From: Thermodesulfobacteriota bacterium
Lineage (GTDB): Bacteria > Desulfobacterota_D > UBA1144
Reading direction: 5' to 3'
DNA length: 64,000 bases
Assembly (NCBI GenBank): GCA_030835345.1
Contig: JAURPH010000007.1
Coordinates: forward strand, 13,542 to 77,541
Part shown: positions 6,113-43,571 of the stretch, one piece after another
How positions within the stretch are numbered: position 1 is the first letter of the stretch
Layout of the letters: each line of letters begins with the position of its first letter
Translations under genes and position numbers: made by a program
The notes under the pieces: model-generated
The model's database searches: none
What the model saw: only the letters and a program-made list of their open reading frames with translations
Told to the model about the DNA's origin: nothing

Positions 6113-7063
6113 ATGAGTAAATTTCTTAAGAAAATAAAAAAAGCTTTAATAATTGGAATTGGGGGTGGAGCAGATATTGTTGGAACAATACCAATGAAAT
6201 CATATCTCGAAGAGCATGGAATAGAATGTTATTTAGGGGGATTGCCATGGGAAAGGTATTCAATTGATCCTTATCCAGGACCTAGAAGGTTTAGTGAAAT
6301 TCAAAAAAAGAGGAGTTTTAATAAAAGTATTTGTTTTATAACAGATAAAACTCTAACTAAAGATGGTCTTCAATTCAGTGAATCTAAAGTGGCAAATTTT
6401 GTACAAAATAAAATTATTTTCGTTAATATTTTTAATTCAATTAGAAGTATTGCAGCTGACTTAATAGAGTTTATTAATGATAAAAAAATTGATTATGTAG
6501 TAGGTGTCGATGTTGGCGGCGATGTTTTAGCTTTGGGAGATGAAAAAGGATTGGCAAGCCCTTTAGCTGATTCAATAATGTTGAATGTACTTAAAATTAT
6601 TGAAGCTAAATGTTTAACACACCTTGGGGTTCTGGGTTATGGAAGTGATGGGGAATTAAAAATAAGTGAAATTAATAAATGTATGGCAATAGCATCTTCA
6701 AAAAAAGGCCTAGTAGGGTCTGTGGGACTTTCTACGGATGCATATAAAACAATGAAGGAAATAGTAAAAAAAGTAGAGACTGATGCAAGCAGAATTCCTT
6801 TACTATCTTTTGAGGGTTCTTATGGAAATCACCCCATAAGGAGAGGAAGAATTCAAGTTGAGGTCCATCCAATGTCTCAAATAACATTTTTATTTAGCCC
6901 CACAATTGTTTTTAAAAATTTATCGAACCCAGCAAGGCTTATATCTAAAAGCAAAAGTTTTTATGAAGCAAATGAAATACTGTTAACGAATAATATTTCT
7001 TCAGAATTCAATTATGAAGTTAAAAAACATATGGAAATTAGCTCATTAAATAATAAAGGATAA
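6113..7063 (+). CDS. Conserved hypothetical protein, tentatively DUF1152-like (glycine-rich GIGGGAD loop)
   Basis: 316 aa with N-terminal ALIIGIGGGADIVGT...GGLPWERYSIDPYPGPRRF. My recollection is that this matches the DUF1152 family pattern, but I cannot verify it. It has no TM segments. Its 3' end overlaps the convergent transporter gene by about 26 nt. Confidence 0.35.
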   Translation: MSKFLKKIKKALIIGIGGGADIVGTIPMKSYLEEHGIECYLGGLPWERYSIDPYPGPRRFSEIQKKRSFNKSICFITDKTLTKDGLQFSESKVANFVQNKIIFVNIFNSIRSIAADLIEFINDKKIDYVVGVDVGGDVLALGDEKGLASPLADSIMLNVLKIIEAKCLTHLGVLGYGSDGELKISEINKCMAIASSKKGLVGSVGLSTDAYKTMKEIVKKVETDASRIPLLSFEGSYGNHPIRRGRIQVEVHPMSQITFLFSPTIVFKNLSNPARLISKSKSFYEANEILLTNNISSEFNYEVKKHMEISSLNNKG

Positions 7064-10605: not shown

Positions 10606-11043
10606 TCAATTTTTAAAATTAGCCAATTCATTTTTGAATTCATTATAAAGGTACTTGCTAATTATAAAAGATAAAAAAACTTTATTTGAATTATCATACA
10701 AGCAGAATTTTAGGTCTTTCTTACTTAAAAATGAGTACATTTTATCAACATCCTCATCGTTGTTAATAGAAACCAAATGAGAAAATGATTCTATATTTAT
10801 ATGATTTTTAGAAAAAATTAATTTCAATTCAATAGTTGGAAAATCGCCTTGCATTACACTGTTAATTAAGAATTTAAAATCTAGAAGACCCAAATCTTGT
10901 ATATCATAAATTGAGGATGATTCTTTTTTGAATAGCATTATTACTTCATCTTTCAGATTTATGATTTTTGAACCTTCAACTATAAAGTCGAAATATCCAT
11001 TAAATTCATCTTCTGTTATTAATGCCCTTGATTTTTTTATCAT
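10606..11043 (-). CDS. Hypothetical protein (145 aa, no recognisable domain)
   Basis: Called from the ORF alone. AT-rich codon usage is consistent with the host. No motif is recognised. Confidence 0.3.
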   Translation of the reverse strand: MIKKSRALITEDEFNGYFDFIVEGSKIINLKDEVIMLFKKESSSIYDIQDLGLLDFKFLINSVMQGDFPTIELKLIFSKNHINIESFSHLVSINNDEDVDKMYSFLSKKDLKFCLYDNSNKVFLSFIISKYLYNEFKNELANFKN

Positions 11044-11309: not shown

Positions 11310-12239
11310 TTATCCAGCGAATGATTCAAAATGGATGAAGTTTTGTAGATTCAATATAGAGTCAGGAAGTGGTTCGTGCGTAAAATGCTGGGGACTAATT
11401 GTTCTTGCAATCAATTTGGTCCCTTCAATAATTCTCATAGCTGGTCTTGTATAGTAAGAATCAGCATCAACTATGTATACATTTCCCATATTAAATGCAG
11501 GTATTTTATTTAATTCTGTGTTATTTAATATGCAATCGATATCATTTAGAGTTTTTTCTATGTTCCAACCACAAGGCATTATAAATATAAAATGAGGAGC
11601 ATATTTTTTTATTTCATCCCAATCAACAATCCTTGATTTCTCATTACTCATGCTTAATCCACTTTCGCCGCCTGCAATTTCAATCATTTCGGGTACCCAA
11701 TGACCTGCAGAATATAATGGATCTAACCATTCCATTGCGAAAACTCTGGGTCTATCGATTATATCTTTTGTTGCATTTTTGATTTTATTAATTTGATTCA
11801 TAAATTCATTTTTTAAATCCTCGCCAGCCTTACTTACCGATAAACTATCTGCTAGCTTTGCTATTTCAGTTGGTATCTCTTTAAGATTGGATGGAGAATA
11901 ATCAATAATTTTTCCTTTGACATTTAAATCCAAAGTATCATTTCTTGAAACAGCACAAACACTACATGTCTCCTGGGTGATTATAAAATCAGGATTGAGT
12001 TCGGATATAAGCTCCTTATCAAGAATAAATGGAGATTTATTATCTTTTATTATTTTTTTTAATTCTTCATCAATTTCTTTACTAGAATTTGTTTCCTCGA
12101 GCTTAATCCTCGATGCAACTGGTTTTTCTTTAATACTGTCGGGATAATTACATTCTTCACTTATTCCGACAATTGAATCTGAAAGTCCTAATTCACATAA
12201 GATCTCGGTTGCCGCAGGCAAAAGGGATAAAATTTTCAT
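11310..12239 (-). CDS. btuF: ABC-transporter periplasmic binding protein, BtuF/FhuD (cluster A) family; probable cobalamin-binding protein
   Basis: N-terminal KILSLLPAATEILCELGLSDSIVGIS is a typical BtuF-like start. It lies immediately downstream of btuB, under the cobalamin riboswitch. Confidence 0.65.
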   Translation of the reverse strand: MKILSLLPAATEILCELGLSDSIVGISEECNYPDSIKEKPVASRIKLEETNSSKEIDEELKKIIKDNKSPFILDKELISELNPDFIITQETCSVCAVSRNDTLDLNVKGKIIDYSPSNLKEIPTEIAKLADSLSVSKAGEDLKNEFMNQINKIKNATKDIIDRPRVFAMEWLDPLYSAGHWVPEMIEIAGGESGLSMSNEKSRIVDWDEIKKYAPHFIFIMPCGWNIEKTLNDIDCILNNTELNKIPAFNMGNVYIVDADSYYTRPAMRIIEGTKLIARTISPQHFTHEPLPDSILNLQNFIHFESFAG

Positions 12240-12257: not shown

Positions 12258-14216
12258 TTATTTAAATGTGTCATATCTAAATCCAATCATTATTGTTCTT
12301 CCTGGTGATGTAAAATTTAAAATTTCTTCTCTTTTATCGTTAAAAAGATTTGAAACTTGTATAAATATTTTACTTGTGTGTAAATCATCTTTTTCTAATA
12401 AGTAGTCTCCATATAAACCAAAGTCCCAAAATGAGTCGTTATAAATTCTTGTCGATGAATTTTCATAATCCCATCTCCCTCCTGTATAGCTCGTATCAAG
12501 AGCTACAAACAAATCATTATGCTTTTTACTAATAATTAATCCACCACTAGTTTTCGGCCTTCTCAACAATGCTTCATCATCTTGCCAATTTGCAAAATTA
12601 AAAGAATTTTGTTGAACTACATTATTAACGTTTACGGCTTTTGTTTCTAGATAGGTAAACCAGTATTTAATGGAAAGTTGATTTTCTAATTTAACCAAAC
12701 CACTCGCCTCAATTCCCTGCGATTTTGCTTCATCTAAATTACCATAGGAAGGGCTTCCTCCTCTGTATGCAATCATATCATTTGTTTTGCTCTTAAAGGC
12801 TGTTAAAGATAATGCATATTTTGTATTTTCAAAATCAATTCCAATCTCGTAAGATTGGTTTTTCTCTGCCTTTAAGCCCGTTACACTGTATGTTTCATAA
12901 ATGCTTGGATACTTAATACCTTTACTAAATCCACTTCGAATTTTAATGGTTTCAGAAATATATTTTGATAAAAATACTGTTGGACTATATGTTGTTCCAT
13001 GATATTCATGATCATCTTTTCTAAAAGCGATATCAGCAAAGAAGTTCTCTTGAAAATTTAGTGCAAGCATTCCATAAATTGAATCTATATATGTTTCATG
13101 ACCATAATCTGTTGCGAATGAACTTGCATTCGCATGATAGTTACTTGTTTCATCTAAGTATTCGTAACCTACTTTTGCATCAACTGATATCGTTGAAAAT
13201 AAAGAATTTTTTATTTTGTAATAATAGTTATAGTTTTTCTTTTTTTCCCACCAATCAACATTTCCACTACCAGCATCTCTAGTAGCTCTTTTATTGAAAA
13301 AATATGAAAAATCAAATCCTATTAAGTTATCTTTATAAACTTCATAACTTGTATTAATGGACCTGCTATTTAAATGTCGCCAATCTCTTTGTGTACCAGA
13401 TGTGGAACTATATGTGCCTACTGTGCCCGTGCTACTAGTCGGATATCGAACTGTCGCCCATCTATCAGATATAAGTGTTTTTATCTGGAGCTTTTCATTT
13501 AATGCAGATAGATTTATTCCTGCATTCAAAGCTTTATTGTTATAAGCATCATTAAAAATCCTAAATCCATCATCATCAACTCTGTCATAAGAAAGCACAT
13601 AACCAATCAAAATATCATTTGACTGTTTATTGAATTGTCCGCTTATTGAAACAGCTTGTTCATTTGATAGGAATGTTCCACCATCAGTTTGCCCAGTAGC
13701 ATCTTTCTTAAAACTTTGGTTAATACCAAAGGATGACATAAGTGAAATTTGAGTTTTATTCGATGGTTTTTTGGTATTAATAATTATTACAGAGCCCAAT
13801 GCAGAAGATCCAAAAAAACCAGCCATTGGACCTCTCAAAACTTCAATGGATTCTATATTATTAATGGAGACAAATTCAAAATTGAAAGATCCACCAACAT
13901 CGTTATATTTAACACCATCAATAATTACTAAATTATGATCTGACTCTGAGCCACGAGAAAATACGCTTATTAATCCACCCCTTCCTCCTGTTTGCTTAAC
14001 AGATAGCCCTGGAACAAGTTTTAGTAAATCTCCAACACTTTGTGCCCCTGATGTTTTTATTTCATCTTCACTGATTATTGTTGCAGATCCACCAAATCTA
14101 TTTGTTTGGATTGTTGTATTTCCAATGGTTTTGGGATTTTTTAGCTCGATATCAGATGATATTGAGTAATTTGTTAATAATAATATGATCAAGAAAAATC
14201 TTAATAAAATGCTCAT
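12258..14216 (-). CDS. btuB: TonB-dependent outer-membrane receptor, vitamin B12 transporter BtuB-like
   Basis: Signal peptide, then a plug domain reading SGAQSVGDLLKLVPGLSVKQTGGRGGLISVFSRGSESDHNLVIIDGVKYND..IEVLRGP, close to the E. coli BtuB plug. A 22-strand barrel-sized C-terminal region follows. A cobalamin riboswitch sits in its 5' leader. Confidence 0.8.
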   Translation of the reverse strand: MSILLRFFLIILLLTNYSISSDIELKNPKTIGNTTIQTNRFGGSATIISEDEIKTSGAQSVGDLLKLVPGLSVKQTGGRGGLISVFSRGSESDHNLVIIDGVKYNDVGGSFNFEFVSINNIESIEVLRGPMAGFFGSSALGSVIIINTKKPSNKTQISLMSSFGINQSFKKDATGQTDGGTFLSNEQAVSISGQFNKQSNDILIGYVLSYDRVDDDGFRIFNDAYNNKALNAGINLSALNEKLQIKTLISDRWATVRYPTSSTGTVGTYSSTSGTQRDWRHLNSRSINTSYEVYKDNLIGFDFSYFFNKRATRDAGSGNVDWWEKKKNYNYYYKIKNSLFSTISVDAKVGYEYLDETSNYHANASSFATDYGHETYIDSIYGMLALNFQENFFADIAFRKDDHEYHGTTYSPTVFLSKYISETIKIRSGFSKGIKYPSIYETYSVTGLKAEKNQSYEIGIDFENTKYALSLTAFKSKTNDMIAYRGGSPSYGNLDEAKSQGIEASGLVKLENQLSIKYWFTYLETKAVNVNNVVQQNSFNFANWQDDEALLRRPKTSGGLIISKKHNDLFVALDTSYTGGRWDYENSSTRIYNDSFWDFGLYGDYLLEKDDLHTSKIFIQVSNLFNDKREEILNFTSPGRTIMIGFRYDTFK

Positions 14217-14317
14217 AGTAACTCTCCTTAAGTTACTTCGAACGATTAAGAAAATAGATTATAAATAAATTTATAAAATTATTTTTCCTTTAACCTCGAA
14301 GAAAAATTATTAAATGT

Positions 14318-14468
14318 TTTTGGCAGGTCTTCTGACTTTAAGCACTACAGTTGCCTTCCCATTTGTATTAAACAGTGGCATATTAACTGCAATTTTTTTG
14401 CTTATTACAGCAGCGGGTCTGTGATGGACTTTCACCATACTTCCCTATTAAACTCTTGCGAGTACCGA
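14318..14468 (-). ncRNA. Cobalamin (AdoCbl) riboswitch in the btuB 5' leader
   Basis: The minus-strand RNA reads UAAUAGGGAAGUAUGGUGAAAGUCCAUCACAGACCCGCUGCUGUAAUAAG ... AUAUGCCACUGUUUAAUACAAAUGGGAAGGCAACUG ... AGACCUGCCA. This carries the conserved AAUAGGGAAG/GGUGAAA-UCC core, the CCCGC-CUGUAA element, the B12 box GCCACUG and the GGGAAGGC/ACCUGCC pairing elements. Confidence 0.8.
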
Positions 14469-14495
14469 TTATGAATTATCATGTAGAATTAAGTC

Positions 14496-15422
14496 ATGTC
14501 AAGAAAATATAGAGTTGTAACCCTTGGTGGAGGAGTAGGTGCAGGTAAATTTCTTGAAGGACTTTACGAATTTAAAAATGAAATAAATTTGAACCTGATT
14601 ATAAACACCTCAGACGATATAGACATTTATGGTGTAAGAGTTAGCCCTGATGTCGATACAGTTATTTATTGGCTTTCTGATAATATTGATCGAAAAAAAG
14701 GTTGGGGTATAAAAGGGGATACTTTAAATCTTGTAAATGAATCATCATCGAATTGGTTTAATCTAGGCGATTTAGATTATCAATATAATAAAAAGAAGAA
14801 AGTTGATATGGATAAAGGTATGACTTTACAAGAAAATATAAAATTTAGATGTAAAGAATTAGGTTTATTTGATGTAACTATTCTTCCCATGACAAATGAT
14901 AAAGTTGAAACTTATATTTTAACTTCCGAGGGAAAAATGCATTTTCAAAAATATCTTATCAAAAATAAAATGTTACCAAAAGTTTTAGGAATTGAATTTC
15001 AGAATATAGCTAATGCAAGTCCAGCTCATTCTTTGCTTGATTTGGTCAAAGAATCAGATTTAATTATTTATTGTCCTAGTAATCCTCTTATAAGTATTGA
15101 TCCAATATTAGAGGTAAAAGGTATTTATGATGAAATTCAAATGTCAGATTCAAAAAAGGTCGCAATCTCACCAATAGTAAATGATAAAGCATTTAAAGGA
15201 CCGATTCTTAACTTAATGAAACTTAAAGGTTTAGAATTATCTGTTTTAGGTGTTGCAGAATATTATAAAACAAAAGCTGATTTTCTATTAATCGATAATT
15301 CAGATAAACATTACGAGAAAAGAATCAAAGAATTTGGTTTAGAGCCAATTGTTACAAATATAAATATGACATCCAAAGATGTCTCTATTAATATATCAAA
15401 AATTATTTTAGATTTGTTATAG
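14496..15422 (+). CDS. cofD: 2-phospho-L-lactate transferase CofD (F420 biosynthesis; CofD/UPF0052 family)
   Basis: N-terminal VVTLGGGVGAGKFLEGL glycine loop. The VSPDVDTVIYWLSDNIDRKKGWGIKGDT block matches the CofD family. It is followed directly by cofE, cofG and cofH. Confidence 0.7.
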   Translation: MSRKYRVVTLGGGVGAGKFLEGLYEFKNEINLNLIINTSDDIDIYGVRVSPDVDTVIYWLSDNIDRKKGWGIKGDTLNLVNESSSNWFNLGDLDYQYNKKKKVDMDKGMTLQENIKFRCKELGLFDVTILPMTNDKVETYILTSEGKMHFQKYLIKNKMLPKVLGIEFQNIANASPAHSLLDLVKESDLIIYCPSNPLISIDPILEVKGIYDEIQMSDSKKVAISPIVNDKAFKGPILNLMKLKGLELSVLGVAEYYKTKADFLLIDNSDKHYEKRIKEFGLEPIVTNINMTSKDVSINISKIILDLL

Positions 15423-15429
15423 TTTAATT

Positions 15430-16176
15430 ATGAATAAAGTTGAACTCATACCAGTTCAAGGCCTCCCAAGTATTGATCCTGGCGACAATATCCCTCTTAT
15501 TATTTCGCAAGCCTTAGAAGAAAATAATTTGATTCTAAATCAAAATGATATTCTAGTAATAGCTCATAAAATTGTTTCAATTTCCGAAAAGAGATTGGTT
15601 AATATACAAGAAGTTAAAGCAGGGAAAAAAGCAATTTTAATGGCTAAAAAATGTAAAAAGGATCCAAAGCTTATTCAATTAATACTCGATAATGCAAAAG
15701 ATGTGCTTAGAATTAACAAGGATTTTCTAATAACTAGAGATTTAAATGGTATTGTTGCTGCCAATTCAGGAATTGATCAGTCAAATTATTTCCACAAAGA
15801 TTTTGCAGTTCTACTTCCTAAAAATTCTAATAAATCAGCTAAAAAAATATCTCTAGATTTAAAAAAAATCTTAAATAAAGACATATCAGTAATTATAACA
15901 GATAGTGTTGGAAGGCCTTGGAGAAATGGACTAACCCAAATTGCACTAGGTTCTTTTGGTATTCCCTCCATTGTTAGTTATAAACAAGATCTCTATGATA
16001 GCCCACTTTTTGATACAGATATACCCATAGTGGATGAGCTTTGTTCTACTGCTGGTATTCTAATGATTAAAGATAAAGGTATTCCTGTAGTTATCATAAG
16101 GGGGTATAATTATTCTTTTATCAAACAAGGTTTAAGGAACATTATTAGGTCTGAGAAAAATGATATCTTTAAGTAA
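15430..16176 (+). CDS. cofE: Coenzyme F420-0:L-glutamate ligase CofE
   Basis: 248 aa. N-terminal VELIPVQGLPSIDPGDNIPLIISQAL...DILVIAHKIVSISEKRLVNI fits the CofE N-terminus pattern. It is part of the cof cluster and overlaps the cofG start. Confidence 0.65.
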   Translation: MNKVELIPVQGLPSIDPGDNIPLIISQALEENNLILNQNDILVIAHKIVSISEKRLVNIQEVKAGKKAILMAKKCKKDPKLIQLILDNAKDVLRINKDFLITRDLNGIVAANSGIDQSNYFHKDFAVLLPKNSNKSAKKISLDLKKILNKDISVIITDSVGRPWRNGLTQIALGSFGIPSIVSYKQDLYDSPLFDTDIPIVDELCSTAGILMIKDKGIPVVIIRGYNYSFIKQGLRNIIRSEKNDIFK

Positions 16177-17419
16177 AATTTATAATGACTTTTTAAAATA
16201 TAATAATTCCTCGGAATTGCTAGAACTCCATTCTATTCCTTATAACAATTATGATTCTATCCCAAATAAATTTCTGACTGTGCTTGAAAATTACTTAGAC
16301 GATAACGAACTAGATAGAGAACAATTAAAAATCTTAACAAGTATGGAAATCGAACATGTTTCTGTCTTGATGGCGGTGGCCAATTATATAAGAAGAACAA
16401 AAAAGGGAGATTTAATTAGTTTCTCCAAGAATGTTTTTATTCCGCTAACTCAACTATGTAGAGATCAATGTTCATATTGTACATTTAAAATTGAACCAGG
16501 CGAAGGTGAATTACTTGTCCCACCAGAGAAAGTTTTAGAATCTGCAAGAAAAGCTGCTCAGGCAGGATGTACTGAATTATTATTTGTTTCTGGTGATAAG
16601 CCTGAAATTATTTATGATGTATATAAAGATAAGCTCCAATCTATGGGATATAGTTCAACTGCGGACTATATGATTTCCATGAGTGAAATTTGTTTGGAAG
16701 AAAATATATTTCCACATTCAAATTTAGGTATTGCTAATCAAGCAGAATTGAAAAGATTTAGAAAATCCAACCCTAGTATGGGCCTAATGTTGGAAAATAT
16801 AAGTGAGAGATTGATGAAGCCAGGTATGGCACATCATAAATGCCCTGACAAATATCCAAAAGCCAGAGTTAATACTATACTTACAGCAGGTAAACTTAAA
16901 ATTCCATGGACATCTGGCATTCTTATTGGTATTGGTGAAAATTGGGACGAAAGAATTGATTCGATTCTAGAATTGAGAAAAATTAATGATTTATATGGTC
17001 ATATCCAAGAAATAATAATTCAAAATTTTAGCCCCAAACCAGGAATTAAAATGGAAGGACATCCTGTTCCTACTGATTTAGATATGATCAAAACAGTAGC
17101 ACTATCAAAATTAATCATGGGTGATGCTGTTAGTATTCAGGTTCCCCCAAACCTTAATTCGAAGTCATATATGTTACATGTTTTTTCTGGGGTAAGTGAT
17201 CTTGGGGGTGTTTCACCTCTAACAATTGATTTTGTTAATCCAGAATCACCATGGCCGCAAATTGATATAATGAAAAAAACTTTAACTGAATTTGGCTTTA
17301 CTCTCAGGGAGAGATTACCAGTATATCCAGGTTATTTAAAAAGTGAGTTTATTGAAGATCATATATACCAAAGGGCAATTAAATTTGTTGACGAAACAGG
17401 GTTTGTAGCTGAAAATTAG
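16160..17419 (+). CDS. cofG: FO (7,8-didemethyl-8-hydroxy-5-deazariboflavin) synthase subunit CofG, radical SAM
   Basis: CRDQCSYCTF radical-SAM cluster motif as in the CofG consensus (CxxxCxYCxF). 419 aa. Confidence 0.8.
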   Translation: MISLSKIYNDFLKYNNSSELLELHSIPYNNYDSIPNKFLTVLENYLDDNELDREQLKILTSMEIEHVSVLMAVANYIRRTKKGDLISFSKNVFIPLTQLCRDQCSYCTFKIEPGEGELLVPPEKVLESARKAAQAGCTELLFVSGDKPEIIYDVYKDKLQSMGYSSTADYMISMSEICLEENIFPHSNLGIANQAELKRFRKSNPSMGLMLENISERLMKPGMAHHKCPDKYPKARVNTILTAGKLKIPWTSGILIGIGENWDERIDSILELRKINDLYGHIQEIIIQNFSPKPGIKMEGHPVPTDLDMIKTVALSKLIMGDAVSIQVPPNLNSKSYMLHVFSGVSDLGGVSPLTIDFVNPESPWPQIDIMKKTLTEFGFTLRERLPVYPGYLKSEFIEDHIYQRAIKFVDETGFVAEN

Positions 17420-17428
17420 GTTTTTATT

Positions 17429-18616
17429 ATGGAAGATGCTCTAAAGAAGATTATAGATAAGATTGAAGGTAATAGGATCAAAGGTTTAGATTCAAGCCTA
17501 TCTAGTTCCTCGTCTGAAATTGCAAAAATTATAAACAAGCCATTTGAAAAGAAAGAAATTAGTGAAGAAGAAGCAGTAAAACTTTTTTTGATTGAGGATT
17601 CAGATGAGCTTGCCTCACTAATAATTGCAGCAGATAATGCAAGAAAAGAAGATGTTGGGGACGATGTAACATACGTAGTCAATAGAAATATAAACTTTAC
17701 AAATATTTGTAATACCTATTGTGGTTTTTGTAACTTCATGGCTCCAGAGGGAGACTCTAGGGCATATTTTCTAACTATGGATGAGATTAAGGAAAAGGTT
17801 CTTGAAGCAAAAGATAATGGTGCCACAGAAGTCTGTATGCAAGGTGGTATGCACCCTGATATTGATGGGAATTTTTATGTTGAGATTATTAAAAGTGTTA
17901 AAGAGGCTGTTCCTAACATGCATACGCATTGCTTTTCACCTTTTGAAGTTCATTATGGGGCAGAAACGCTTGGAATTCCTATTCTAGATTTTGTTAAAAT
18001 GCTCAAAGATGTCGGACATGGTACTTTCCCTGGAACGGCTGCAGAAATTTTAAGTGAAGATGTAAGGAAAATTATTGCACCAGGGAAAATTACAACTGAC
18101 CAATGGGTGAATACAATTAAAGAAATACATAGAGCAGGTATGAAAACTACTTCAACTATCATGTATGGACATGTTGACAAGCCTCATCACTGGGCAAGAC
18201 ATTTTGAAGTCATAAGAGAAATACAAAAAGAAACTATGGGAATTACTGAGTTTGTTCCACTAAGGTTTATTCCCTGGGATACAAGAATATTTAAGAAAGG
18301 TATATCTAGAGAAGGCCCTAGTGATTTGGATCAATTGAAAATGTATGCAATTTCTAGGCTTTATTTCAGAGGATTGATAAAAAATATACAAGTGTCCTGG
18401 GTAAAACAAGGGCCAGAATTTGCTCAATATTGTCTAACTGCAGGAGCCAATGATTTTGGCGGTACTTTAATGGAAGAAAAAATTACGACTGCAGCAGGCG
18501 GTAAGTTTGGGCAATATTTCGCACCTGAAGATTTTAGAAAATTAAGCTTCGAAATAAATAGAAGACCCGTAGAAAGATCTACTTCTTATGAATATTTGAA
18601 AGTTTTTGAAAATTAA
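17429..18616 (+). CDS. cofH: FO synthase subunit CofH, radical SAM
   Basis: NICNTYCGFCNF motif (CofH-type CxxxCxFCxF). 395 aa. Sits immediately after cofG. Confidence 0.8.
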   Translation: MEDALKKIIDKIEGNRIKGLDSSLSSSSSEIAKIINKPFEKKEISEEEAVKLFLIEDSDELASLIIAADNARKEDVGDDVTYVVNRNINFTNICNTYCGFCNFMAPEGDSRAYFLTMDEIKEKVLEAKDNGATEVCMQGGMHPDIDGNFYVEIIKSVKEAVPNMHTHCFSPFEVHYGAETLGIPILDFVKMLKDVGHGTFPGTAAEILSEDVRKIIAPGKITTDQWVNTIKEIHRAGMKTTSTIMYGHVDKPHHWARHFEVIREIQKETMGITEFVPLRFIPWDTRIFKKGISREGPSDLDQLKMYAISRLYFRGLIKNIQVSWVKQGPEFAQYCLTAGANDFGGTLMEEKITTAAGGKFGQYFAPEDFRKLSFEINRRPVERSTSYEYLKVFEN

Positions 18617-26158: not shown

Positions 26159-27778
26159 ATGAAAAAAAATTGGGAAGAAAAATTTAAAGAAAAAATTAAA
26201 GAGAGAAAACAAAAGTTTTCAACATCTTCTGGAATTAAAGTCGATAGATTTTATACAGCAGATGATTTATCAAAAGATGTAGATTCTAAAAATTCTTTGC
26301 CTGGAGAATTCCCATTTGTTAGAGGTGTTCAGCCAACAATGTATAGAGGCCGTTATTGGACTATGCGCCAATATGCGGGATTTGGTTCTGCCAAAGACAC
26401 AAATAATAGATTTAAAAGCTTATTGGATAAAGGTCAAACGGGTTTGAGTGTAGCTTTTGACCTACCAACCCAGATGGGTTATGACTCAGATCATATGATT
26501 AGCAAAGGCGAGGTTGGCAAAGTAGGAGTAGCAATCGATTCTTTAGAAGATATGGAAATTCTTCTTGAAGGTATACCTTTAGATAAAGTTTCAACTTCCA
26601 TGACTATAAATGCAACAGCCTCAATGTTGCTGGCAATGTATATGATTGCTGCTGAGAAACAAGGAGTTGGGCCTGAACAAATAATGGGTACTATTCAAAA
26701 CGATTTGTTAAAAGAGTTCATTGCTCGAGGTACATATGCATTTCCACCTGAACCATCTGTAAAATTAACAGTCGATATAATGGAATATTGTAAGGATAAT
26801 ATTCCTAAGTGGAATCCAATTAGTGTTAGCGGCTATCATATTCGTGAAGCAGGATCAACCGCTGTTCAAGAACTAGCTTTTATGCTAGCCGATGCAATTG
26901 AGTATCTTGAAATTGCTAAATCTAGAAATATTGATGTACAAAAAATTTGCCAGCGAGTTTCTTTTTTCTTTGCCGTTCATAATAATTTCTTTGAGGAGAT
27001 TGCTAAATACAGAGCTGCAAGAAGAATATGGTCAAATATCTTAAGAAAACAATTTAAAATCACTGACGATAATTCATGTAAATTTAGAGTTCATTCTCAA
27101 ACTGGTGGTGTTACTTTAACTGCTCAGCAACCTCTTAATAATGTTGTAAGAGTCTCTATGCAGGCCTTAGCTGCTGTTTTAGGGGGCACACAATCTTTAC
27201 ACACTAACTCATTTGATGAAGCTTTAGGGTTACCTACTGAGGATTCTGCAACCATTGCATTGAGGACTCAGCAAATTATTGCATATGAGTCTGAGGTGGC
27301 TGATTCCATTGATCCTTTGGCAGGCTCATATTATATTGAGAATTTAACTGATGAGATTGAAAAGAAAGTTTACGATTACTTAGAAATAATAAAACAAAAA
27401 GGTGGAATGATTAAGTGTATTGAGGATACATATATTCAAGGAGAAATTGAGAATTCAGCTTTTGATTTTCAAATTGAGCTTGAGAAGAAAGATAGAACTG
27501 TTGTTGGGGTTAACGATTTTAAAGCTGAGCAAGAAAAACCAATGCCTATTCAAGAAATAGATCCTATGTTAGAAAAAGATCAAGTAGAAAGATTGAGATC
27601 TTTAAGAGAAAGAAGAGATTCTAGTTTAGTAGATAAGTGTTTAGCCGATTTAGAAAATGCAGCTAATAAAAATGAAAATCTAATGCCGTATATAGTAGAT
27701 GCTGTAAGGGCATATTGTACCATTGGTGAAATGACAATGTCTTTAGAGAAGGTTTATGGACGCTTTAAGGGAGTATAA
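26159..27778 (+). CDS. Methylmalonyl-CoA mutase, catalytic (large/N-terminal) subunit without a B12-binding domain
   Basis: FVRGVQPTMYRGRYWTMRQYAGFGSAKDTNNRFKSLLDKGQTGLSVAFDLPTQMGYDSD is close to MutB substrate-binding barrel motifs. The MCM-type Tyr is present. The protein ends at 539 aa before any DxHxxG cobalamin domain. Confidence 0.85.
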   Translation: MKKNWEEKFKEKIKERKQKFSTSSGIKVDRFYTADDLSKDVDSKNSLPGEFPFVRGVQPTMYRGRYWTMRQYAGFGSAKDTNNRFKSLLDKGQTGLSVAFDLPTQMGYDSDHMISKGEVGKVGVAIDSLEDMEILLEGIPLDKVSTSMTINATASMLLAMYMIAAEKQGVGPEQIMGTIQNDLLKEFIARGTYAFPPEPSVKLTVDIMEYCKDNIPKWNPISVSGYHIREAGSTAVQELAFMLADAIEYLEIAKSRNIDVQKICQRVSFFFAVHNNFFEEIAKYRAARRIWSNILRKQFKITDDNSCKFRVHSQTGGVTLTAQQPLNNVVRVSMQALAAVLGGTQSLHTNSFDEALGLPTEDSATIALRTQQIIAYESEVADSIDPLAGSYYIENLTDEIEKKVYDYLEIIKQKGGMIKCIEDTYIQGEIENSAFDFQIELEKKDRTVVGVNDFKAEQEKPMPIQEIDPMLEKDQVERLRSLRERRDSSLVDKCLADLENAANKNENLMPYIVDAVRAYCTIGEMTMSLEKVYGRFKGV

Positions 27779-28232
27779 TTTTTTTACTCATTAAAATTGC
27801 ATCTTCATTGCTTTTTTGATAGTATTTCTTTCTTATTGAATCAGTTTTAAAACCATTTTTCCTATAAAAATTTATAGCTTCAAAATTATTAGAATTTACA
27901 TCTAAAAAAATCTTATTTATTTCTCTTCTTATACAAAAATCATTTAATTTTAATATTATTAAATTTGCTAAACCTTTTCTTCTTAATAATTCTGTAGTAG
28001 CAATTTTCATTATCTCTAAAAAATCTACTTCAATTCTAGAAAATGCATAAGCAAGTAGTTTATTATTTTCTTTTATACATATATTATAATTTTTTTCTCT
28101 AATCAGTTCTGAATTAATTTGGGATATGCTCCATGAATATTTAAAAGATTTATTTTCTATTTGATAAATCTCATCAGCATCATCTAAAACTATTTCTTCA
28201 ATATTTATCACTATATGTATTATAATAAACAC
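27765..28232 (-). CDS. GNAT-family N-acetyltransferase (RimI-like)
   Basis: 155 aa with an acetyl-CoA binding-like segment RRKGLANLIILKL and a C-terminal NFYRKNGF. Overlaps neighbouring gene ends. Confidence 0.55.
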   Translation of the reverse strand: MFIIIHIVINIEEIVLDDADEIYQIENKSFKYSWSISQINSELIREKNYNICIKENNKLLAYAFSRIEVDFLEIMKIATTELLRRKGLANLIILKLNDFCIRREINKIFLDVNSNNFEAINFYRKNGFKTDSIRKKYYQKSNEDAILMSKKIILP

Positions 28233-28961
28233 AAAATGAAGAAAGCACTTATTGTATTAAGTGGGGGACAGGATTCGACCACATGTTTGTTCTGGGCACT
28301 CAATCAAGGCTATGAATGTTCAGCAATAACATTTGATTACAACCAACTTCATTCTATTGAAATTGATTCAGCTAGGAAAATAGTGGATATAGCTAAGCTT
28401 AAAAATCATAAAATCTTAAAACTTGGATCAATATTTGATGGAGAATCACCTTTAACAAACTTAACGAGAGAATTGCAAACTCATAATAGCTTAGAGGAAT
28501 TTCCTCGTGGGCTACAACCAACATTTGTACCATCAAGAAATATTGTTTTTTTATCTTTAGCATCTAATTATGCTTATTCTTTGGGGATTGATACTATTGT
28601 TACTGGAGTTTGTGAAACAGATTATGCTGGGTATCCAGATTGCCGAAAAGAATTTATAGAATCATTAGAATCTTCAATTTCACTGGGCTTAGATAAGAAA
28701 ATTAAAATCTTAACACCGTTAATTAGCATAAAAAAATCTGATATAGTTAAACTTGCTTGGCAGCTTGGACCTATTTGTTGGAATGCTTTATCTTTTTCAC
28801 ATACAAGTTATGATGGAAAATATCCCCCAACAATCGGTGACCATGCTAATTTATTAAGAGCAAAGGGGTTTTTAGATGCAGGGCTACCTGATCCGTTAGT
28901 TCTTCGTGCAGTTAAAGATGGTCTAATGGAGAAACCAAAAACAAAGAATTATGAAGATTAA
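28215..28961 (+). CDS. queC: 7-cyano-7-deazaguanine synthase QueC (start probably MKKAL at 28236)
   Basis: KKALIVLSGGQDSTTCL PP-loop, with C-terminal Zn-binding cysteines. Confidence 0.9.
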   Translation: MYYNKHKMKKALIVLSGGQDSTTCLFWALNQGYECSAITFDYNQLHSIEIDSARKIVDIAKLKNHKILKLGSIFDGESPLTNLTRELQTHNSLEEFPRGLQPTFVPSRNIVFLSLASNYAYSLGIDTIVTGVCETDYAGYPDCRKEFIESLESSISLGLDKKIKILTPLISIKKSDIVKLAWQLGPICWNALSFSHTSYDGKYPPTIGDHANLLRAKGFLDAGLPDPLVLRAVKDGLMEKPKTKNYED

Positions 28962-29595
28962 GATAAGTGAAGTTTTTTATTCGCTACAAGGGGAAGGCAT
29001 ACAAATTGGAACCCCTACAGTATTTGTAAGATTGTTTGGATGTGATTTAAGGTGTTCTTGGTGTGATTCAATGTATGCAGTTGAAGGAAGGGATTTTAGC
29101 GTTTTAGAGATAAACCAGGTAATTGATAATGTATTATCATACCAATGTGGAAATGTTTGTATTACTGGTGGTGAACCCTTACTTCAATTGGAACAAACAC
29201 TATTTCTTACAGAAAAATTTATAGAAATAGATAAAAAAGTTATATTAGAAACAGCTGGCCATAGAAAGCCACCAGAAATTTTTAAAAATCCTGAAACCAT
29301 AGTAAGTATGGATTGTAAATGCCCATCTTCAGGTATGAATTTTAAATCAGATCTGCAAAATTTGATTCAATTAAAATCTAAGGATCAAATAAAGTTTGTT
29401 ATCGCGGATGACAATGATTATGTTTTTGCAAAAAAGATAGTAAAACAAAATTCTTTTAATGCAGAAATTATATTTCAACCGGTTTATGGCTCAAGCATAT
29501 CGGAAATCGCTAATGCTGTAATTAAGGATAAATTGAGAGTTAGAGTATTGCCACAGCTACATAAGGATATTTGGGGTGATATTAAAGGTGTTTAA
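28951..29595 (+). CDS. queE: 7-carboxy-7-deazaguanine synthase QueE (radical SAM)
   Basis: LQGEGIQIGTPTVFVRLFGCDLRCSWCDSMYA is the QueE CxxxCxxC cluster region. Confidence 0.85.
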   Translation: MKIKISEVFYSLQGEGIQIGTPTVFVRLFGCDLRCSWCDSMYAVEGRDFSVLEINQVIDNVLSYQCGNVCITGGEPLLQLEQTLFLTEKFIEIDKKVILETAGHRKPPEIFKNPETIVSMDCKCPSSGMNFKSDLQNLIQLKSKDQIKFVIADDNDYVFAKKIVKQNSFNAEIIFQPVYGSSISEIANAVIKDKLRVRVLPQLHKDIWGDIKGV

Positions 29596-29911: not shown

Positions 29912-30577
29912 ATGAAAGTTAGATTAGTTAGTTATTCAACTCCCACGAAAGAATTTTTAGATGATGGAATATCCGATGTACAAGAATTGGTAGCATTTTG
30001 TGCTCGTGTTTCAAATCCTTCAAACCAACATAATAAAGACACTTCAGAGAAGTTAATAAAATATTTAATAAAGAATAAGCATTGGTCACCATTAGAAATG
30101 GTGACAGCTTGTATTGAGATTGAAACAACTAGGGATATAGCCCGTCAAATTTTAAGGCATAGATCTTTTAGTTTTCAAGAGTTTAGTCAAAGATATGCAG
30201 ATCCTACTAAAGATTTATCTTTTGTGACAAGAGATGCAAGACTCCAAGATGAAAAGAATAGACAAAATTCTGTTGAGACTGAGGACATACAATTAAAAAA
30301 AGATTGGGAAAGAAAGCAGTCCGAGTTAATTGATTTATCTGTTAAAACTTATAAATGGGCAATAGATAATGGTATAGCAAAAGAGCAGGCTAGAGCAGTT
30401 TTACCTGAGGGTAATACAGTAAGTAGAATGTATATGAATGGAACCCTTAGAAGCTGGGTTCATTATATTGAGCTACGAAGTGCTAATGGAACACAAAAAG
30501 AACATATGGATATAGCTGTTGCGATTGCCGAGATTATTAGCGAAATTTTTCCAATGATGGATACATTCATTGAATAG
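29912..30577 (+). CDS. thyX: FAD-dependent thymidylate synthase ThyX
   Basis: ThyX motif RHRSFSFQEFSQRY (RHRx7-8S). 221 aa. Confidence 0.85.
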   Translation: MKVRLVSYSTPTKEFLDDGISDVQELVAFCARVSNPSNQHNKDTSEKLIKYLIKNKHWSPLEMVTACIEIETTRDIARQILRHRSFSFQEFSQRYADPTKDLSFVTRDARLQDEKNRQNSVETEDIQLKKDWERKQSELIDLSVKTYKWAIDNGIAKEQARAVLPEGNTVSRMYMNGTLRSWVHYIELRSANGTQKEHMDIAVAIAEIISEIFPMMDTFIE

Positions 30578-30579
30578 CT

Positions 30580-31446
30580 TTAAATATTAACTAATTCTAT
30601 ACCACTAGCATTTAAGTCTTTTTTTAAGTTCATGTCAACAAGGTTATGAGAAATTATCTTTTTTACTTTCCCACCTAAAAAATACTTTAAATCAATTTTT
30701 TTATGATTACAAAAATCATAAATTTTTTTGATATTATTGCTATCAACAAATAGATATGTTGGTATTGTTTCATTTATGTTCTCAATAAATTCCAACCAAT
30801 TTTTAAAGTTGATAAATTTTTTTTTATTCTTTAATAATCCAGAACAAATAGAATTACCAAATTTGATATTATTTTGATAAAAAATATTAACAAATTCAGT
30901 TTCTGAAATTTCTGAAATGACTTTGTGAAGTTGTTTTTCATCGAAGTTTAAACTGTTATTAAGATCGAATACCATTAATTTGTTGATTTTGGATTCATCC
31001 AATTTTTTCTTTGACATCATTCCAAATTTATTAATTGTTTTAAATGTTATTAAATTTTTATTTCCTATTTCTTTCTTAATTGAACTGTCTAATGAAATTA
31101 CTGAGAAAAAATCATCAGTATTAATCCTAATTGATTCTTCAATTTGATCTATGACCAATATGTCAAAATTTTTATTTAAATTATCAATATTTGAATCATA
31201 ATTTATTGAACAATTTAGAGCCTTTAAGCAATTAAGAGTTAAAAAATTTTCTAATGTTGTTGAACCACAACTGAATACTTTTTTATTCTCAAACCCATTT
31301 GTGGAGAAATATGCAATTGTATTATCTAGCGAATGTTTTATATCAGAGTAAGTATGCTGTTTCCAGTTCATTCCATCTAAAAACTGATAAGCGAGTGCCT
31401 GGCCATTATTTTTTAAAGCATCCTGTAATGAATTTAAATTTTGCAT
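30580..31446 (-). CDS. Hypothetical protein; N-terminal part is reminiscent of the N-terminal subdomain of acyl-CoA synthetases but lacks the AMP-binding P-loop
   Basis: 288 aa. GQALAYQFLDGMNWKQHTYSDIKHSLDNTIAYF...NKKVFSCGSTTLENFLTLNCLKALNCSIN resembles the start of adenylate-forming enzymes. No (S/T)SGTTGxPKG motif anywhere. Confidence 0.3.
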   Translation of the reverse strand: MQNLNSLQDALKNNGQALAYQFLDGMNWKQHTYSDIKHSLDNTIAYFSTNGFENKKVFSCGSTTLENFLTLNCLKALNCSINYDSNIDNLNKNFDILVIDQIEESIRINTDDFFSVISLDSSIKKEIGNKNLITFKTINKFGMMSKKKLDESKINKLMVFDLNNSLNFDEKQLHKVISEISETEFVNIFYQNNIKFGNSICSGLLKNKKKFINFKNWLEFIENINETIPTYLFVDSNNIKKIYDFCNHKKIDLKYFLGGKVKKIISHNLVDMNLKKDLNASGIELVNI

Positions 31447-38965: not shown

Positions 38966-40018
38966 ATGGATAAGATTAAATTTGGACTTGTTCCCCCAAT
39001 GCCCGGGGCTGATTGTCAGGGTCTAGTAGATTTCTCAGTAAAAGCAGATAATATGGGTTTTGATAGTCTTTGGTTTCCTGATCATTTAGCTTTTATAGCT
39101 CCAAGTCCTGCATATGAGGCATGGACGATAGCTGCTGCAGTCGCCCAACAAACAAAAAATATAACAATTGGTACTACTTCTGACCCACATCGTAATCATC
39201 CTGCTGTCTTTGCCCAGAGACTTGCAACAGTAGATCATCTTTCTAAAGGAAGAGTTGCTCTTGGTTTAGGTGTAGGCGAGTCAATGAATACTGATGCTTA
39301 TGGTATTCCCTGGGATAGTCCATTCAAAAGAATGACTGAATCAATGGATATCATGAAGCTTTTATGGTCTACAAATGAAACAGTAAATTATAACGGCGAC
39401 TTTTTTAAACTGAAAGATGCTTCATTACTTTTAAATTTATATGAGGATAGACAAAGTGTCCCTTTTTATTTTGCAACACATACTGATAAAGGACTAGACT
39501 TGATTGGTAAATCTGGTGATGGCTGGATGCCATTGGACTTAACTCCAGGACTTTATAAAGAATCTCTAGATAAAATCGAAAAGTCAGCCTTGAATTCAGG
39601 AAGAGATATGAAAGAAATTGATACAACACTTTGGATTTTTACTTCTTTGGGTGAAAACGAAGATGAAGCCTATAAAACATTGGAGCCTTTTAGATATGTT
39701 TGTATAATGCAAGATCAATTAAAGAAAGCGGGTTATGATATCGAAATTCCTGATGAGTATAAAGGTTTGAATTACTTTAATATTACTCCTACAGATGAAC
39801 TAAGAAAACAAAAATTTAGAGATTTGGGTAAATTTTTCCCTAGAGAAGCAGTTATAGATTTTACAATTACTGGATCTAAGAAAGATTGTATAAAAAAGAT
39901 AGAAAAGTATGTTGATAAGGGTGTAAAGCATTTTGTACTGTTCCATTATTTTAGTCCTGATCCATCAAAGGCAATGGAAATCTACTCTAAAGAAATACTT
40001 CCTTACTTTAATTCTTAA
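38966..40018 (+). CDS. LLM-class (luciferase-like) flavin-dependent oxidoreductase, probably F420-dependent
   Basis: 350 aa TIM-barrel LLM protein. KFGLVPPMPGADCQGLVDFSVKADNMGFDSLWFPDHL resembles the N-terminus of F420-dependent Mer/Fgd/Adf-type reductases. A cof cluster is present in the same window. Confidence 0.7.
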   Translation: MDKIKFGLVPPMPGADCQGLVDFSVKADNMGFDSLWFPDHLAFIAPSPAYEAWTIAAAVAQQTKNITIGTTSDPHRNHPAVFAQRLATVDHLSKGRVALGLGVGESMNTDAYGIPWDSPFKRMTESMDIMKLLWSTNETVNYNGDFFKLKDASLLLNLYEDRQSVPFYFATHTDKGLDLIGKSGDGWMPLDLTPGLYKESLDKIEKSALNSGRDMKEIDTTLWIFTSLGENEDEAYKTLEPFRYVCIMQDQLKKAGYDIEIPDEYKGLNYFNITPTDELRKQKFRDLGKFFPREAVIDFTITGSKKDCIKKIEKYVDKGVKHFVLFHYFSPDPSKAMEIYSKEILPYFNS

Positions 40019-43554: not shown

Positions 43555-43571
43555 AAATGAATCTCTCTTGT

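What the first reader, a model, noticed from the sequence alone, without database searches (positions are those of the whole stretch)
14496..18616. Complete-looking deazaflavin/F420 cluster cofD-cofE-cofG-cofH in an AT-rich diderm genome
The CofG (CRDQCSYCTF) and CofH (NICNTYCGFCNF) radical-SAM signatures are read directly from the sequence. Immediately upstream lie a CofD-like 2-phospho-L-lactate transferase and a CofE-like gamma-glutamyl ligase. Having cofD and cofE means this is more than a photolyase FO chromophore supply (which would need only cofG/H); it looks like genuine F420 production. F420 in low-GC, streamlined Gram-negative lineages is poorly documented. No cofC/fbiD and no Fno/Fgd-type F420 reductase are in this window. 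The only candidate user is the LLM gene at 38966-40018.
Basis: partly seen in the sequence, partly recalled or inferred. Interest (0 to 1): 0.6.

Follow-up and report, generated by a model that had tools for sequence, protein, structure and literature searches.

The report
F420 cofactor operon in marine Dadabacteria
The four genes are real and make the F420 cofactor core in a tiny-genome ocean bacterium (pelagic Dadabacteria); the gene that looked missing (cofC) lies elsewhere in the genome in a sister lineage, so this is an ordinary pathway in a little-studied host.

Summary
ORFs at 14496-15422, 15430-16176, 16160-17419 and 17429-18616 are CofD, CofE, CofG and CofH. They are tightly packed (7-nt gap, 17-nt overlap, 9-nt gap). 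CofE, CofG and CofH pass NCBIfam equivalog cut-offs. CofD scores 243.8 bits against a 257.45 cut-off, but only 39 bits against YvcK. The window comes from a "Marine Pelagic I" Dadabacterium (closest MAG TOBG-NAT53), with a single-contig genome of about 1.05 Mb at about 30% GC. The operon is syntenic in a pelagic relative whose CofD is only 52% identical. All four genes are under purifying selection (dN/dS 0.03-0.14).

The window has no cofC, fno, photolyase or FDOR. In that relative, however, the same 432,528-bp scaffold carries fno-groES-cofC about 120 kb from the operon, and both pass their equivalog cut-offs. For the window's own genome this split layout is inferred, not shown. The pelagic CofC has Gly at the 3-PG diagnostic site, so it is a 2-PL/PEP type. 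The LLM at 38966-40018 resembles F420-dependent Adf/Mer/Fgd enzymes and is unusually conserved across Dadabacteria.

F420 genes in Dadabacteria were already noted in a 2021 review, and PGAP annotates them. This is a new member of a known kind, of modest interest.

The parts
14217..14495 (.). Divergent intergenic control region between the btuB-like receptor gene and cofD. The cofD promoter must lie here or inside the receptor gene's 5' end.
   Evidence: A minus-strand cobalamin riboswitch occupies 14305-14484. The best promoter-like match in the region is on the minus strand (TTGACA-16-GATAAT, 14502->14475) and overlaps the cofD start codon. No plus-strand match stands out above chance, so the cofD promoter is not located; its position is inferred.
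14496..15422 (+). cofD: transferase that puts the phospholactyl or enolpyruvyl group onto FO (308 aa)
   Evidence: TIGR01819 243.8 bits (cut-off 257.45) versus YvcK 39.3 bits. PF01933 125 bits. Best PDB match is M. mazei CofD 3C3D (E=1.8e-49, 172 bits), ahead of mycobacterial FbiA 6UVX (109 bits). Motifs GGGVGAGK, NTSDD, SPDVDT, PSNP and SPIV are conserved. dN/dS 0.14 versus L009.
15430..16176 (+). cofE: F420-0:gamma-glutamyl ligase, stand-alone (248 aa, no FbiB-type nitroreductase domain)
   Evidence: TIGR01916 218.1 > 180.65. The fused FbiB model NF009810 scores only 154.6 against a 304 cut-off and matches only its N-terminal half. PDB matches are A. fulgidus CofE 2PHN/7ULD (E~3e-29), with GIDQSN, ITDSVGRPWR and VDEL conserved. 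dN/dS 0.10.
16160..17419 (+). cofG: radical-SAM FO synthase subunit (419 aa). Its start overlaps the end of cofE by 17 nt.
   Evidence: TIGR03550 424.4 > 213.35. CxxxCxxC at nt 16457-16480. NCBI names a >=90%-identical cluster member CofG. dN/dS 0.03.
17429..18616 (+). cofH: radical-SAM FO synthase subunit (395 aa)
   Evidence: TIGR03551 477.7 > 374.1. MqnC and MqnE models fall below their cut-offs. PF19288 CofH_C matches. CxxxCxxC at nt 17708-17731. dN/dS 0.03.
38966..40018 (+). Luciferase-like oxidoreductase (350 aa), the candidate F420-dependent enzyme. It lies 20 kb downstream and is not part of the operon.
   Evidence: The 12 best NCBIfam hits are F420-dependent LLM classes (Mer 138 bits), all below their cut-offs; the best non-F420 LLM class scores 68 bits. 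The 10 best PDB matches are all F420 enzymes (Adf 1RHC 116 bits, Mer, Fgd, fHMAD), while FMN enzymes score 54 bits or less. The sequence has DH at aa 39-40 and GVGESMN at aa 102-108; these align with Adf's 'DDH' and 'GAGEAMN' stretches, which I recall to contain the Adf/Fgd catalytic His and Glu. Orthologs are 82-85% identical in other pelagic clades and 62-66% identical in non-pelagic Dadabacteria, including CSP1-2.

Best explanation
This is the core of a functional coenzyme F420 pathway in a streamlined marine Dadabacterium. CofH and CofG (radical-SAM enzymes) build the deazaflavin FO from tyrosine and the riboflavin intermediate 5-amino-6-ribitylamino-uracil. CofD couples FO to a C3-acid phosphate taken from a guanylylated donor, giving F420-0. 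Stand-alone CofE then adds the gamma-glutamyl tail. The donor is made by CofC, which in this clade is not in the operon. In a sister lineage it sits beside the NADPH:F420 oxidoreductase gene fno (fno-groES-cofC) about 120 kb away, near the replication origin. The linker most likely derives from 2-phospho-L-lactate (archaeal type), or from PEP with a separate reductase; it is not 3-PG. Reduced F420 would be used or produced by the highly conserved Adf/Mer/Fgd-like LLM at 38966-40018, and FO may also serve photolyases. Shown here: the gene identities, operon structure, conservation and selection, the organism, and cofC plus fno in the sister lineage. Inferred: cofC and fno in the window's own genome, the linker chemistry, the LLM's cofactor and role, and any chemical production of F420.
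For: The HMM, Pfam and PDB identities of the four proteins agree. Gene spacing is tight, consistent with co-transcription and possible translational coupling. Gene order is identical in NAT53 (L009) and in a relative with 52% CofD identity (L011). dN/dS is 0.03-0.14, like the flanking housekeeping genes. All five proteins lie on one 1,045,770-bp contig, so a genome of about 1.05 Mb keeps them. The same TARA scaffold_8 (432,528 bp) holds cofDEGH (L011, 93-114 kb) and fno-groES-cofC (L102, 217-238 kb), with CofC TIGR03552 120.6 > 105 and Fno TIGR01915 224.9 > 149.8. Further AT-rich marine CofC clusters exist, including the very AT-rich P0514. CofC has Gly at the 3-PG diagnostic site. The LLM resembles F420 enzymes and is strongly conserved. 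The literature already lists Dadabacteria among phyla encoding the pathway.
Against: cofC and fno were not demonstrated in the window's own lineage. The P0514 CofC cluster could not be tied to the ~1.05-Mb contigs. CofD is 14 bits below the curated equivalog cut-off. The LLM reaches no curated F420-LLM cut-off, and PGAP calls it only 'LLM class flavin-dependent oxidoreductase'. No DF420 reductase and no source of 2-PL was identified. There are no chemical data.
Confidence: 0.8

Rival explanations
1. The FO supply is what matters. The operon's key product is FO as a light-harvesting antenna for photolyases in a surface-ocean, proteorhodopsin-bearing organism. In this lineage cofD and cofE are dispensable, or F420 is only a minor by-product.
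For: NAT53 belongs to the surface clade that carries proteorhodopsin. cofG and cofH are the most strongly constrained genes of the four (dN/dS 0.03 versus 0.10-0.14; 67-82% versus 52-53% aa identity to L011). No F420 reductase lies in the window.
Against: cofD and cofE are intact, conserved in synteny across deep divergence, and under purifying selection in a ~1.05-Mb genome. A sister lineage has cofC and fno, which are useless for FO alone. An F420-type LLM is conserved. No photolyase gene lies in the window. The review states that FO genes usually co-occur with F420 genes as a precursor supply.
Confidence: 0.07
2. The window's NAT53-like lineage has lost cofC and/or fno during streamlining. 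It then either uses a non-homologous activating enzyme or scavenged intermediates, or reduces F420 only through the LLM.
For: No Fno locus at ~30% GC appeared among the best 80 metagenome loci, although lineages at 55-58% identity did. In L021 an abhydrolase gene lies two genes upstream of fno, but the window's only abhydrolase (48289-48948) is followed by a Lon-domain gene and no fno; orthology of the two abhydrolases was not tested. None of the 15 listed members of the P0514 CofC cluster lies on a >1-Mb contig.
Against: All of these negatives come from capped, pattern-limited or partially listed searches. CofD has no known substrate without CofC (review), yet cofD is under purifying selection. 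Four distinct AT-rich marine CofC clusters exist, and one of them (P0514) has amino-acid usage as AT-biased as the window's proteins.
Confidence: 0.1
3. The 14496 ORF is a YvcK/UPF0052-type protein and the 15430 ORF is a folate-type gamma-glutamyl ligase, so only FO synthase is genuine.
For: CofD falls slightly below the TIGR01819 trusted cut-off.
Against: YvcK scores 39.3 against a 196 cut-off. The folate-ligase model TIGR04132 scores 67 against 350, while CofE passes its own cut-off. The best PDB matches are CofD and CofE themselves. The genes form an operon with cofG/cofH.
Confidence: 0.02

Closest known systems
Archaeal-type F420 pathway (CofG, CofH, CofC, CofD, CofE as separate proteins; e.g. 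Methanosarcina / Archaeoglobus)
   Same: FO synthase is split into CofG and CofH. CofE is stand-alone with no nitroreductase domain. CofD is closer to M. mazei CofD (172 bits) than to mycobacterial FbiA (109 bits). CofC has Gly at the 3-PG diagnostic site, as in 2-PL/PEP enzymes.
   Different: The host is a bacterium, aerobic and photoheterotrophic according to Graham & Tully (PMC8115339). The genes are split into two loci (cofDEGH, and fno-groES-cofC). The use of 2-PL and its source are not shown.
Proteobacterial F420 clusters (e.g. Leisingera caerulea plasmid cofG-cofH-cofD-cofC-cofE-npdG-LLM; Aromatoleum and Paraburkholderia plasmids)
   Same: They have the same set of enzymes, a stand-alone CofE, Fno as the NADPH link, and an associated F420-type LLM.
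   Different: In those clusters cofC and npdG sit inside the cluster. In pelagic Dadabacteria they are about 120 kb away. CofD identity is only about 34%. Several proteobacterial clusters have a fused cofGH gene.
Mycobacterial Fbi pathway (FbiC, FbiD, FbiA, FbiB)
   Same: The overall chemistry is the same; a PEP-derived route cannot be excluded.
   Different: There is no CofG-CofH fusion and no CofE-nitroreductase fusion. The bifunctional FbiC model NF006687 and the FbiB model NF009810 both fall far below their cut-offs.
Ca. Actinomarinales: streamlined AT-rich epipelagic F420 producers (PMC7771536)
   Same: Same niche (epipelagic, rhodopsin-bearing), genome of about 1 Mb and low GC, with the F420 pathway and F420-dependent oxidoreductases retained despite streamlining.
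   Different: They are monoderm Actinobacteria in which F420 is ancestral to the phylum. Here the host is a diderm Dadabacterium.
Non-pelagic Dadabacteria (CSP1-2, Ca. Mycalebacterium, HR37-like, the 2.8-Mb genome behind L021)
   Same: They carry orthologous CofD (40-45% identity), the LLM (62-66%) and Fno (TIGR01915 232 bits).
   Different: In them cofD stands alone next to SMC/SurA and the suf operon, or is otherwise isolated. The compact cofDEGH operon was seen only in the pelagic clade.

Membership tests
FO synthase CofG/CofH (radical SAM, split form) | Two radical-SAM proteins that each carry a CxxxCxxC cluster motif and pass the CofG and CofH equivalog models rather than the MqnC/MqnE/ThiH models | tested here: met
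   TIGR03550 424.4 > 213.35 and TIGR03551 477.7 > 374.1. MqnC scores 338.9 < 428.1 and MqnE 284.4 < 434.55. Motifs located.
CofD (LPPG:FO 2-phospho-L-lactate transferase) | Scores as CofD rather than as the YvcK/UPF0052 subfamily | tested here: met
   TIGR01819 243.8 bits versus TIGR01826 39.3 bits. The best PDB hits are CofD 3C3D and FbiA 6UVX only.
CofD (LPPG:FO 2-phospho-L-lactate transferase) | Reaches the curated equivalog cut-off of TIGR01819 | tested here: not met
   243.8 against 257.45 bits, a 14-bit shortfall. This is plausibly due to AT-driven amino-acid bias. NCBI names 56%-identical homologs '2-phospho-L-lactate transferase'.
CofE (F420-0:gamma-glutamyl ligase), stand-alone form | Passes the CofE equivalog model and lacks a C-terminal FbiB nitroreductase domain | tested here: met
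   TIGR01916 218.1 > 180.65. The protein is 248 aa. NF009810 (FbiB-type) scores 154.6 < 304 and aligns only to positions 11-243 of 449.
Complete F420 biosynthesis pathway | CofC/FbiD guanylyltransferase present in the same genome | tested here: inconclusive
   It is absent from the 64-kb window. It is present on the same scaffold as the syntenic operon in a sister pelagic lineage (TIGR03552 120.6 > 105). It was neither shown nor excluded for the window's own genome.
Complete F420 biosynthesis pathway | An F420-reducing enzyme (Fno, Fgd, Adf or similar) in the same genome | tested here: inconclusive
   No Fno lies in the window. Fno is present in the sister lineage and in a larger Dadabacterium. 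The window LLM is Adf/Fgd-like but uncharacterised.
Complete F420 biosynthesis pathway | F420 chemically detectable (420-nm absorbance/fluorescence, LC-MS) | not testable with these tools
   The lineage is uncultured. The review states there are no experimental studies outside a few phyla.
F420-dependent luciferase-like oxidoreductases | Passes a curated F420-LLM subfamily model | tested here: not met
   The best is Mer NF002619 at 137.8 < 276; all others are also below their cut-offs. The ranking nonetheless favours F420 classes over FMN classes, and the top 10 PDB matches are all F420 enzymes.
3PG-F420 variant pathway (Mycetohabitans type) | Ser/Thr at the CofC position equivalent to Mrhiz-CofC S162 | tested here: not met
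   The pelagic CofC has 'FFGSNS' where 7P97 has 'FFSGPS', and P0514 has 'CFGENS'. The diagnostic role of S162 is from PMC8764529. This was tested on sister-lineage CofC, not on the window genome.
FO-only photolyase chromophore supply | cofG/cofH (or fbiC) present without cofD/cofE/cofC, plus an FO-binding photolyase | tested here: not met
   cofD and cofE are present and constrained. No photolyase domain occurs in the window. The rest of the genome was not tested.

The most novel reading that the evidence does not exclude
In globally distributed ~1.05-Mb pelagic Dadabacteria, F420 is retained mainly to serve one exceptionally conserved Adf/Mer/Fgd-like LLM of unknown substrate. That enzyme is 82-85% identical across pelagic clades whose CofD is only ~52% identical. 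This would mean an undescribed core F420-dependent reaction in an abundant ocean photoheterotroph. The NAT53-like lineage might also have dispensed with canonical fno or cofC.
Probability: 0.15. Interest if true: 0.5.

Novelty: new member of a known kind. Interest (0 to 1): 0.25.

Why it matters
The result documents that a cosmopolitan bacterioplankton clade with an extremely streamlined genome keeps the whole F420 machinery. The paper describing that clade never mentions F420. This adds a diderm counterpart to Ca. Actinomarinales, and it points to one strongly conserved LLM as the likely reason the cofactor is kept. The result is useful for annotating ocean metagenomes and for choosing an enzyme to characterise. 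It does not change what is known about F420 biosynthesis.

Tried and rejected
1. I looked for cofC next to cofD in relatives (HR37-like L010, Thermodesulfobacteriota L012, L013, Ca. Mycalebacterium L015, L016). It was never adjacent.

2. A profile search with four plasmid-derived CofC sequences (A1) was flooded by GC-rich proteobacterial and Chloroflexi CofCs. No hit came from a ~1.05-Mb contig and no hit was AT-rich. The result is uninformative.

3. The supplements of Graham & Tully were searched for F420, cof genes, KO and COG identifiers. Nothing was found, because the stored eggNOG table is truncated.

4. The one genome-contig scan returned only NAT53, so that genome could not be scanned for cofC.

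5. I tried to tie the AT-rich CofC P0514 to the window's genome through contig lengths. This was not achieved.

6. YvcK, FbiB-fusion, FbiC-fusion and folate-ligase readings were rejected on HMM scores.

7. Promoter and terminator scans gave no more sites than expected by chance, so I make no claim about a cofD promoter or terminator.

8. Searches failed because of malformed search terms and yielded nothing.

Structure prediction was not run, because the sequence-level matches were already unambiguous.


Full report
**Observation.** They are packed as an operon, with a 7-nt gap, a 17-nt overlap and a 9-nt gap. cysE follows 23 nt later.

**Identity of the four proteins.**
- Against NCBIfam, CofE (TIGR01916, 218.1 vs cut-off 180.65), CofG (TIGR03550, 424.4 vs 213.35) and CofH (TIGR03551, 477.7 vs 374.1) pass their curated equivalog cut-offs.
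- The menaquinone paralog models MqnC and MqnE fall below their own cut-offs.
- CofD scores 243.8 bits on TIGR01819 (E=2e-72). That is 14 bits under the trusted cut-off of 257.45, but six times its score on the YvcK model (39.3 vs cut-off 196).
- Pfam agrees.
- Among solved structures, the CofD candidate matches only M. mazei CofD (3C3D, 172 bits) and mycobacterial FbiA (109 bits). The nucleotide- and FO-binding motifs are conserved.
- The CofE candidate matches A. fulgidus CofE (2PHN/7ULD), with the metal/GTP-site motifs conserved.
- CofE is stand-alone: the fused FbiB model aligns only over its N-terminal half and is far below its cut-off.

**Organism.**
- The window is about 30% GC throughout.
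- The exact CofD sequence occurs in many marine and TARA assemblies.
- All five proteins of interest lie on one 1,045,770-bp contig. Near-identical variants lie on other single contigs of 1.05-1.08 Mb.
- The only GTDB species representative with a close CofD (91%) is 'bacterium NAT53', which has the same gene order.
- TOBG-NAT53 (GCA_002701605) is a member of the 'Marine Pelagic I' clade of Dadabacteria in Graham & Tully (PMC8115339). It is streamlined, about 1.2 Mb by estimate, and carries proteorhodopsin.
- Further support: more distant CofD hits are named Ca. Mycalebacterium, HR37 and Thermodesulfobacteriota. The window's LLM is 64% identical to that of Ca. Dadabacteria CSP1-2.
- The adjacent TonB-dependent receptor confirms a diderm envelope.

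**Conservation.**
- A pelagic relative whose CofD is only 52% identical (L011, TARA scaffold_8) has the same arrangement: receptor gene, then cofD-cofE-cofG-cofH-cysE, then argC-gap-pgk.
- Against NAT53, dN/dS is 0.14, 0.10, 0.03 and 0.03 for cofD, cofE, cofG and cofH. This is within the range of flanking housekeeping genes.
- In non-pelagic Dadabacteria and other Thermodesulfobacteriota, cofD stands alone or is followed only by cofG and cofH. The compact four-gene operon was seen only in the pelagic clade.

**What is missing from the window.**
- Nearly every ORF of 110 aa or more in the window was annotated.
- There is no CofC (PF01983), Fno (PF03807 alone), photolyase, FDOR or nitroreductase.
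- tblastn with genuine CofC and Fno sequences from a Leisingera plasmid cluster found nothing.
- Profile searches of all six-frame ORFs of 40 aa or more also found nothing.
- In reference clusters, cofC lies next to cofD, and in the three proteobacterial ones npdG is in the cluster too.

**Finding cofC and fno.**
- A profile search with plasmid CofCs was swamped by GC-rich homologs.
- The lead came from the LLM. Its ortholog in a 2.8-Mb Dadabacterium (L021) lies 9 kb from a bona fide Fno (TIGR01915 232.5 > 149.8).
- I used that Fno as the lead sequence in the one metagenome scan. This returned AT-rich marine loci (L037-L040, 34-38% GC, 55-58% identical) that keep the yggS-proC-yggT-DUF167-fno synteny.
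- Immediately after fno and groES in L038 lies a CofC (PF01983, 77.7 bits).
- The 90%-identity cluster of that Fno includes a member on a 432,528-bp contig.
- A look-up confirmed that this contig is the same record as L011, TARA_SAMEA2619907_METAG-scaffold_8. It carries cofDEGH at 93-114 kb and fno-groES-cofC at 217-238 kb, near dnaA/dnaN/dnaB.
- Both proteins pass their equivalog cut-offs: CofC 120.6 > 105 and Fno 224.9 > 149.8.
- So a pelagic Dadabacterium with this very operon has the complete pathway plus the NADPH link, split between two loci.

**The window's own lineage.**
- I could not close this gap for the window's own lineage.
- An exhaustive search with the pelagic CofC found a distinct, very AT-rich, full-length CofC cluster (P0514; 43% identical; TIGR03552 105.3 vs 105).
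- None of the 15 listed members of that cluster lies on a >1-Mb contig.
- cofC and fno in the window's genome are therefore inferred, at roughly 85-90% confidence, not shown.

**Which F420 variant.**
- Hasan et al. (PMC8764529) showed that Ser162 of Mycetohabitans CofC is diagnostic for 3-PG use.
- The pelagic CofC has Gly at that position ('FFGSNS' against 'FFSGPS' in 7P97). P0514 also has Gly.
- With a stand-alone CofE and a CofD closer to the archaeal enzyme, the likeliest linker is 2-phospho-L-lactate, as in archaea.
- A PEP route with a separate DF420 reductase is the alternative. No such reductase was seen in the window.
- This part is inference.

**Candidate user.**
- The LLM at 38966-40018 scores best on F420-dependent LLM classes (Mer 138 bits; best non-F420 LLM class 68 bits), but reaches no curated cut-off.
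- Its ten best PDB matches are all F420 enzymes (Adf, Mer, Fgd, fHMAD).
- It has DH at aa 39-40 and GVGESMN at aa 102-108, aligned with Adf's 'DDH' and 'GAGEAMN' stretches; my recollection is that these hold the Adf/Fgd catalytic His and Glu.
- It is far more conserved than the biosynthetic genes: 82-85% identical in other pelagic clades and 62-66% across Dadabacteria.
- I infer that it is a core F420-dependent dehydrogenase or reductase of unknown substrate.

**Comparison with what is known.**
- Grinter & Greening 2021 (PMC8498797) already list Dadabacteria among phyla whose MAGs encode the F420 genes. They note that no experimental work exists for such lineages.
- F420 in Gram-negative Proteobacteria is established (same review).
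- Ca. Actinomarinales provide a direct ecological parallel: a ~1-Mb, AT-rich epipelagic photoheterotroph that keeps F420 (PMC7771536).
- The paper describing the pelagic Dadabacteria never mentions F420 or photolyase.
- NCBI's pipeline already names CofG and CofH in this lineage.

**Verdict.** This is a new member of a known kind. Its modest points of interest are the clade-specific split of the pathway (cofDEGH here; fno-groES-cofC near the origin) and one unusually conserved F420-type LLM kept in a 1.05-Mb genome.

Noticed in passing
window 14305-14484 (-), with 12258-14216 (-) and 11310-12239 (-): A cobalamin riboswitch (RF00174, 95 bits) precedes a TonB-dependent receptor and a Peripla_BP_2 binding protein, forming a btuB/btuF-like B12 uptake unit. 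Its best promoter match (TTGACA-16-GATAAT, 14502->14475) places the -35 box inside the first codons of cofD. The two divergent units therefore share about 280 nt of control DNA, and any cofD 5' leader would be antisense to the riboswitch.
   Followed up: partly
window 26159-27778 (+); 42058-45134 (-): A B12-dependent methylmalonyl-CoA mutase and a biotin carboxylase/carboxyltransferase pair (propionyl-CoA-carboxylase-like) lie in the same window as the B12 uptake unit. This is consistent with B12 scavenging to support propionate/methylmalonyl metabolism.
   Followed up: no
window 6113-7063 (+): A DUF1152 protein (316 aa) has no NCBIfam match. It is conserved in synteny in NAT53 (87% identical, dN/dS 0.12) and in the distant pelagic relative L011 (57%). 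Function unknown.
   Followed up: partly
window 37825-38955 (+) and 38966-40018 (+): The conserved F420-type LLM starts 10 nt after a sigma-70 family gene (376 aa) and just downstream of tRNA-Gln, which suggests co-transcription with a sigma factor. In a 2.8-Mb Dadabacterium (L021) the LLM ortholog instead sits back-to-back with a second LLM and the TBDR/PBP/fabH block that flanks cofD in the window. This implies rearrangement during streamlining.
   Followed up: partly
window 28215-29595 (+), 58009-58368 (-): The 7-deazaguanine/queuosine genes queC and queE are adjacent, and queF lies 29 kb away. This is a second deaza-cofactor/base pathway in the window, unrelated to F420. thyX (29912-30577) lies next to them.
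   Followed up: no
window 30580-31446 (-) and 10606-11043 (-): Two ORFs (288 aa and 145 aa) have no Pfam or NCBIfam match. The 145-aa ORF is poorly conserved (32% identity to L011, dN/dS 0.22 versus NAT53).
   Followed up: partly
L102 10001-11653 (TARA scaffold_8, 227-229 kb); also L038 and L039: In pelagic Dadabacteria fno, groES and cofC are contiguous (cofC convergent, overlapping the end of groES by 8 nt). They lie near dnaA/dnaN/dnaB. CofC diverges fast (65% identity between contigs whose Fno is at least 90% identical).
   Followed up: yes
L009 (NZWF02000010.1) about 14100-16900: The apparent low amino-acid identity of cysE, argC and gap to the window (72-83%), despite near-zero dN, probably results from masked N runs in the stored MAG sequence, which I did not inspect directly, rather than from real divergence.
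   Followed up: no
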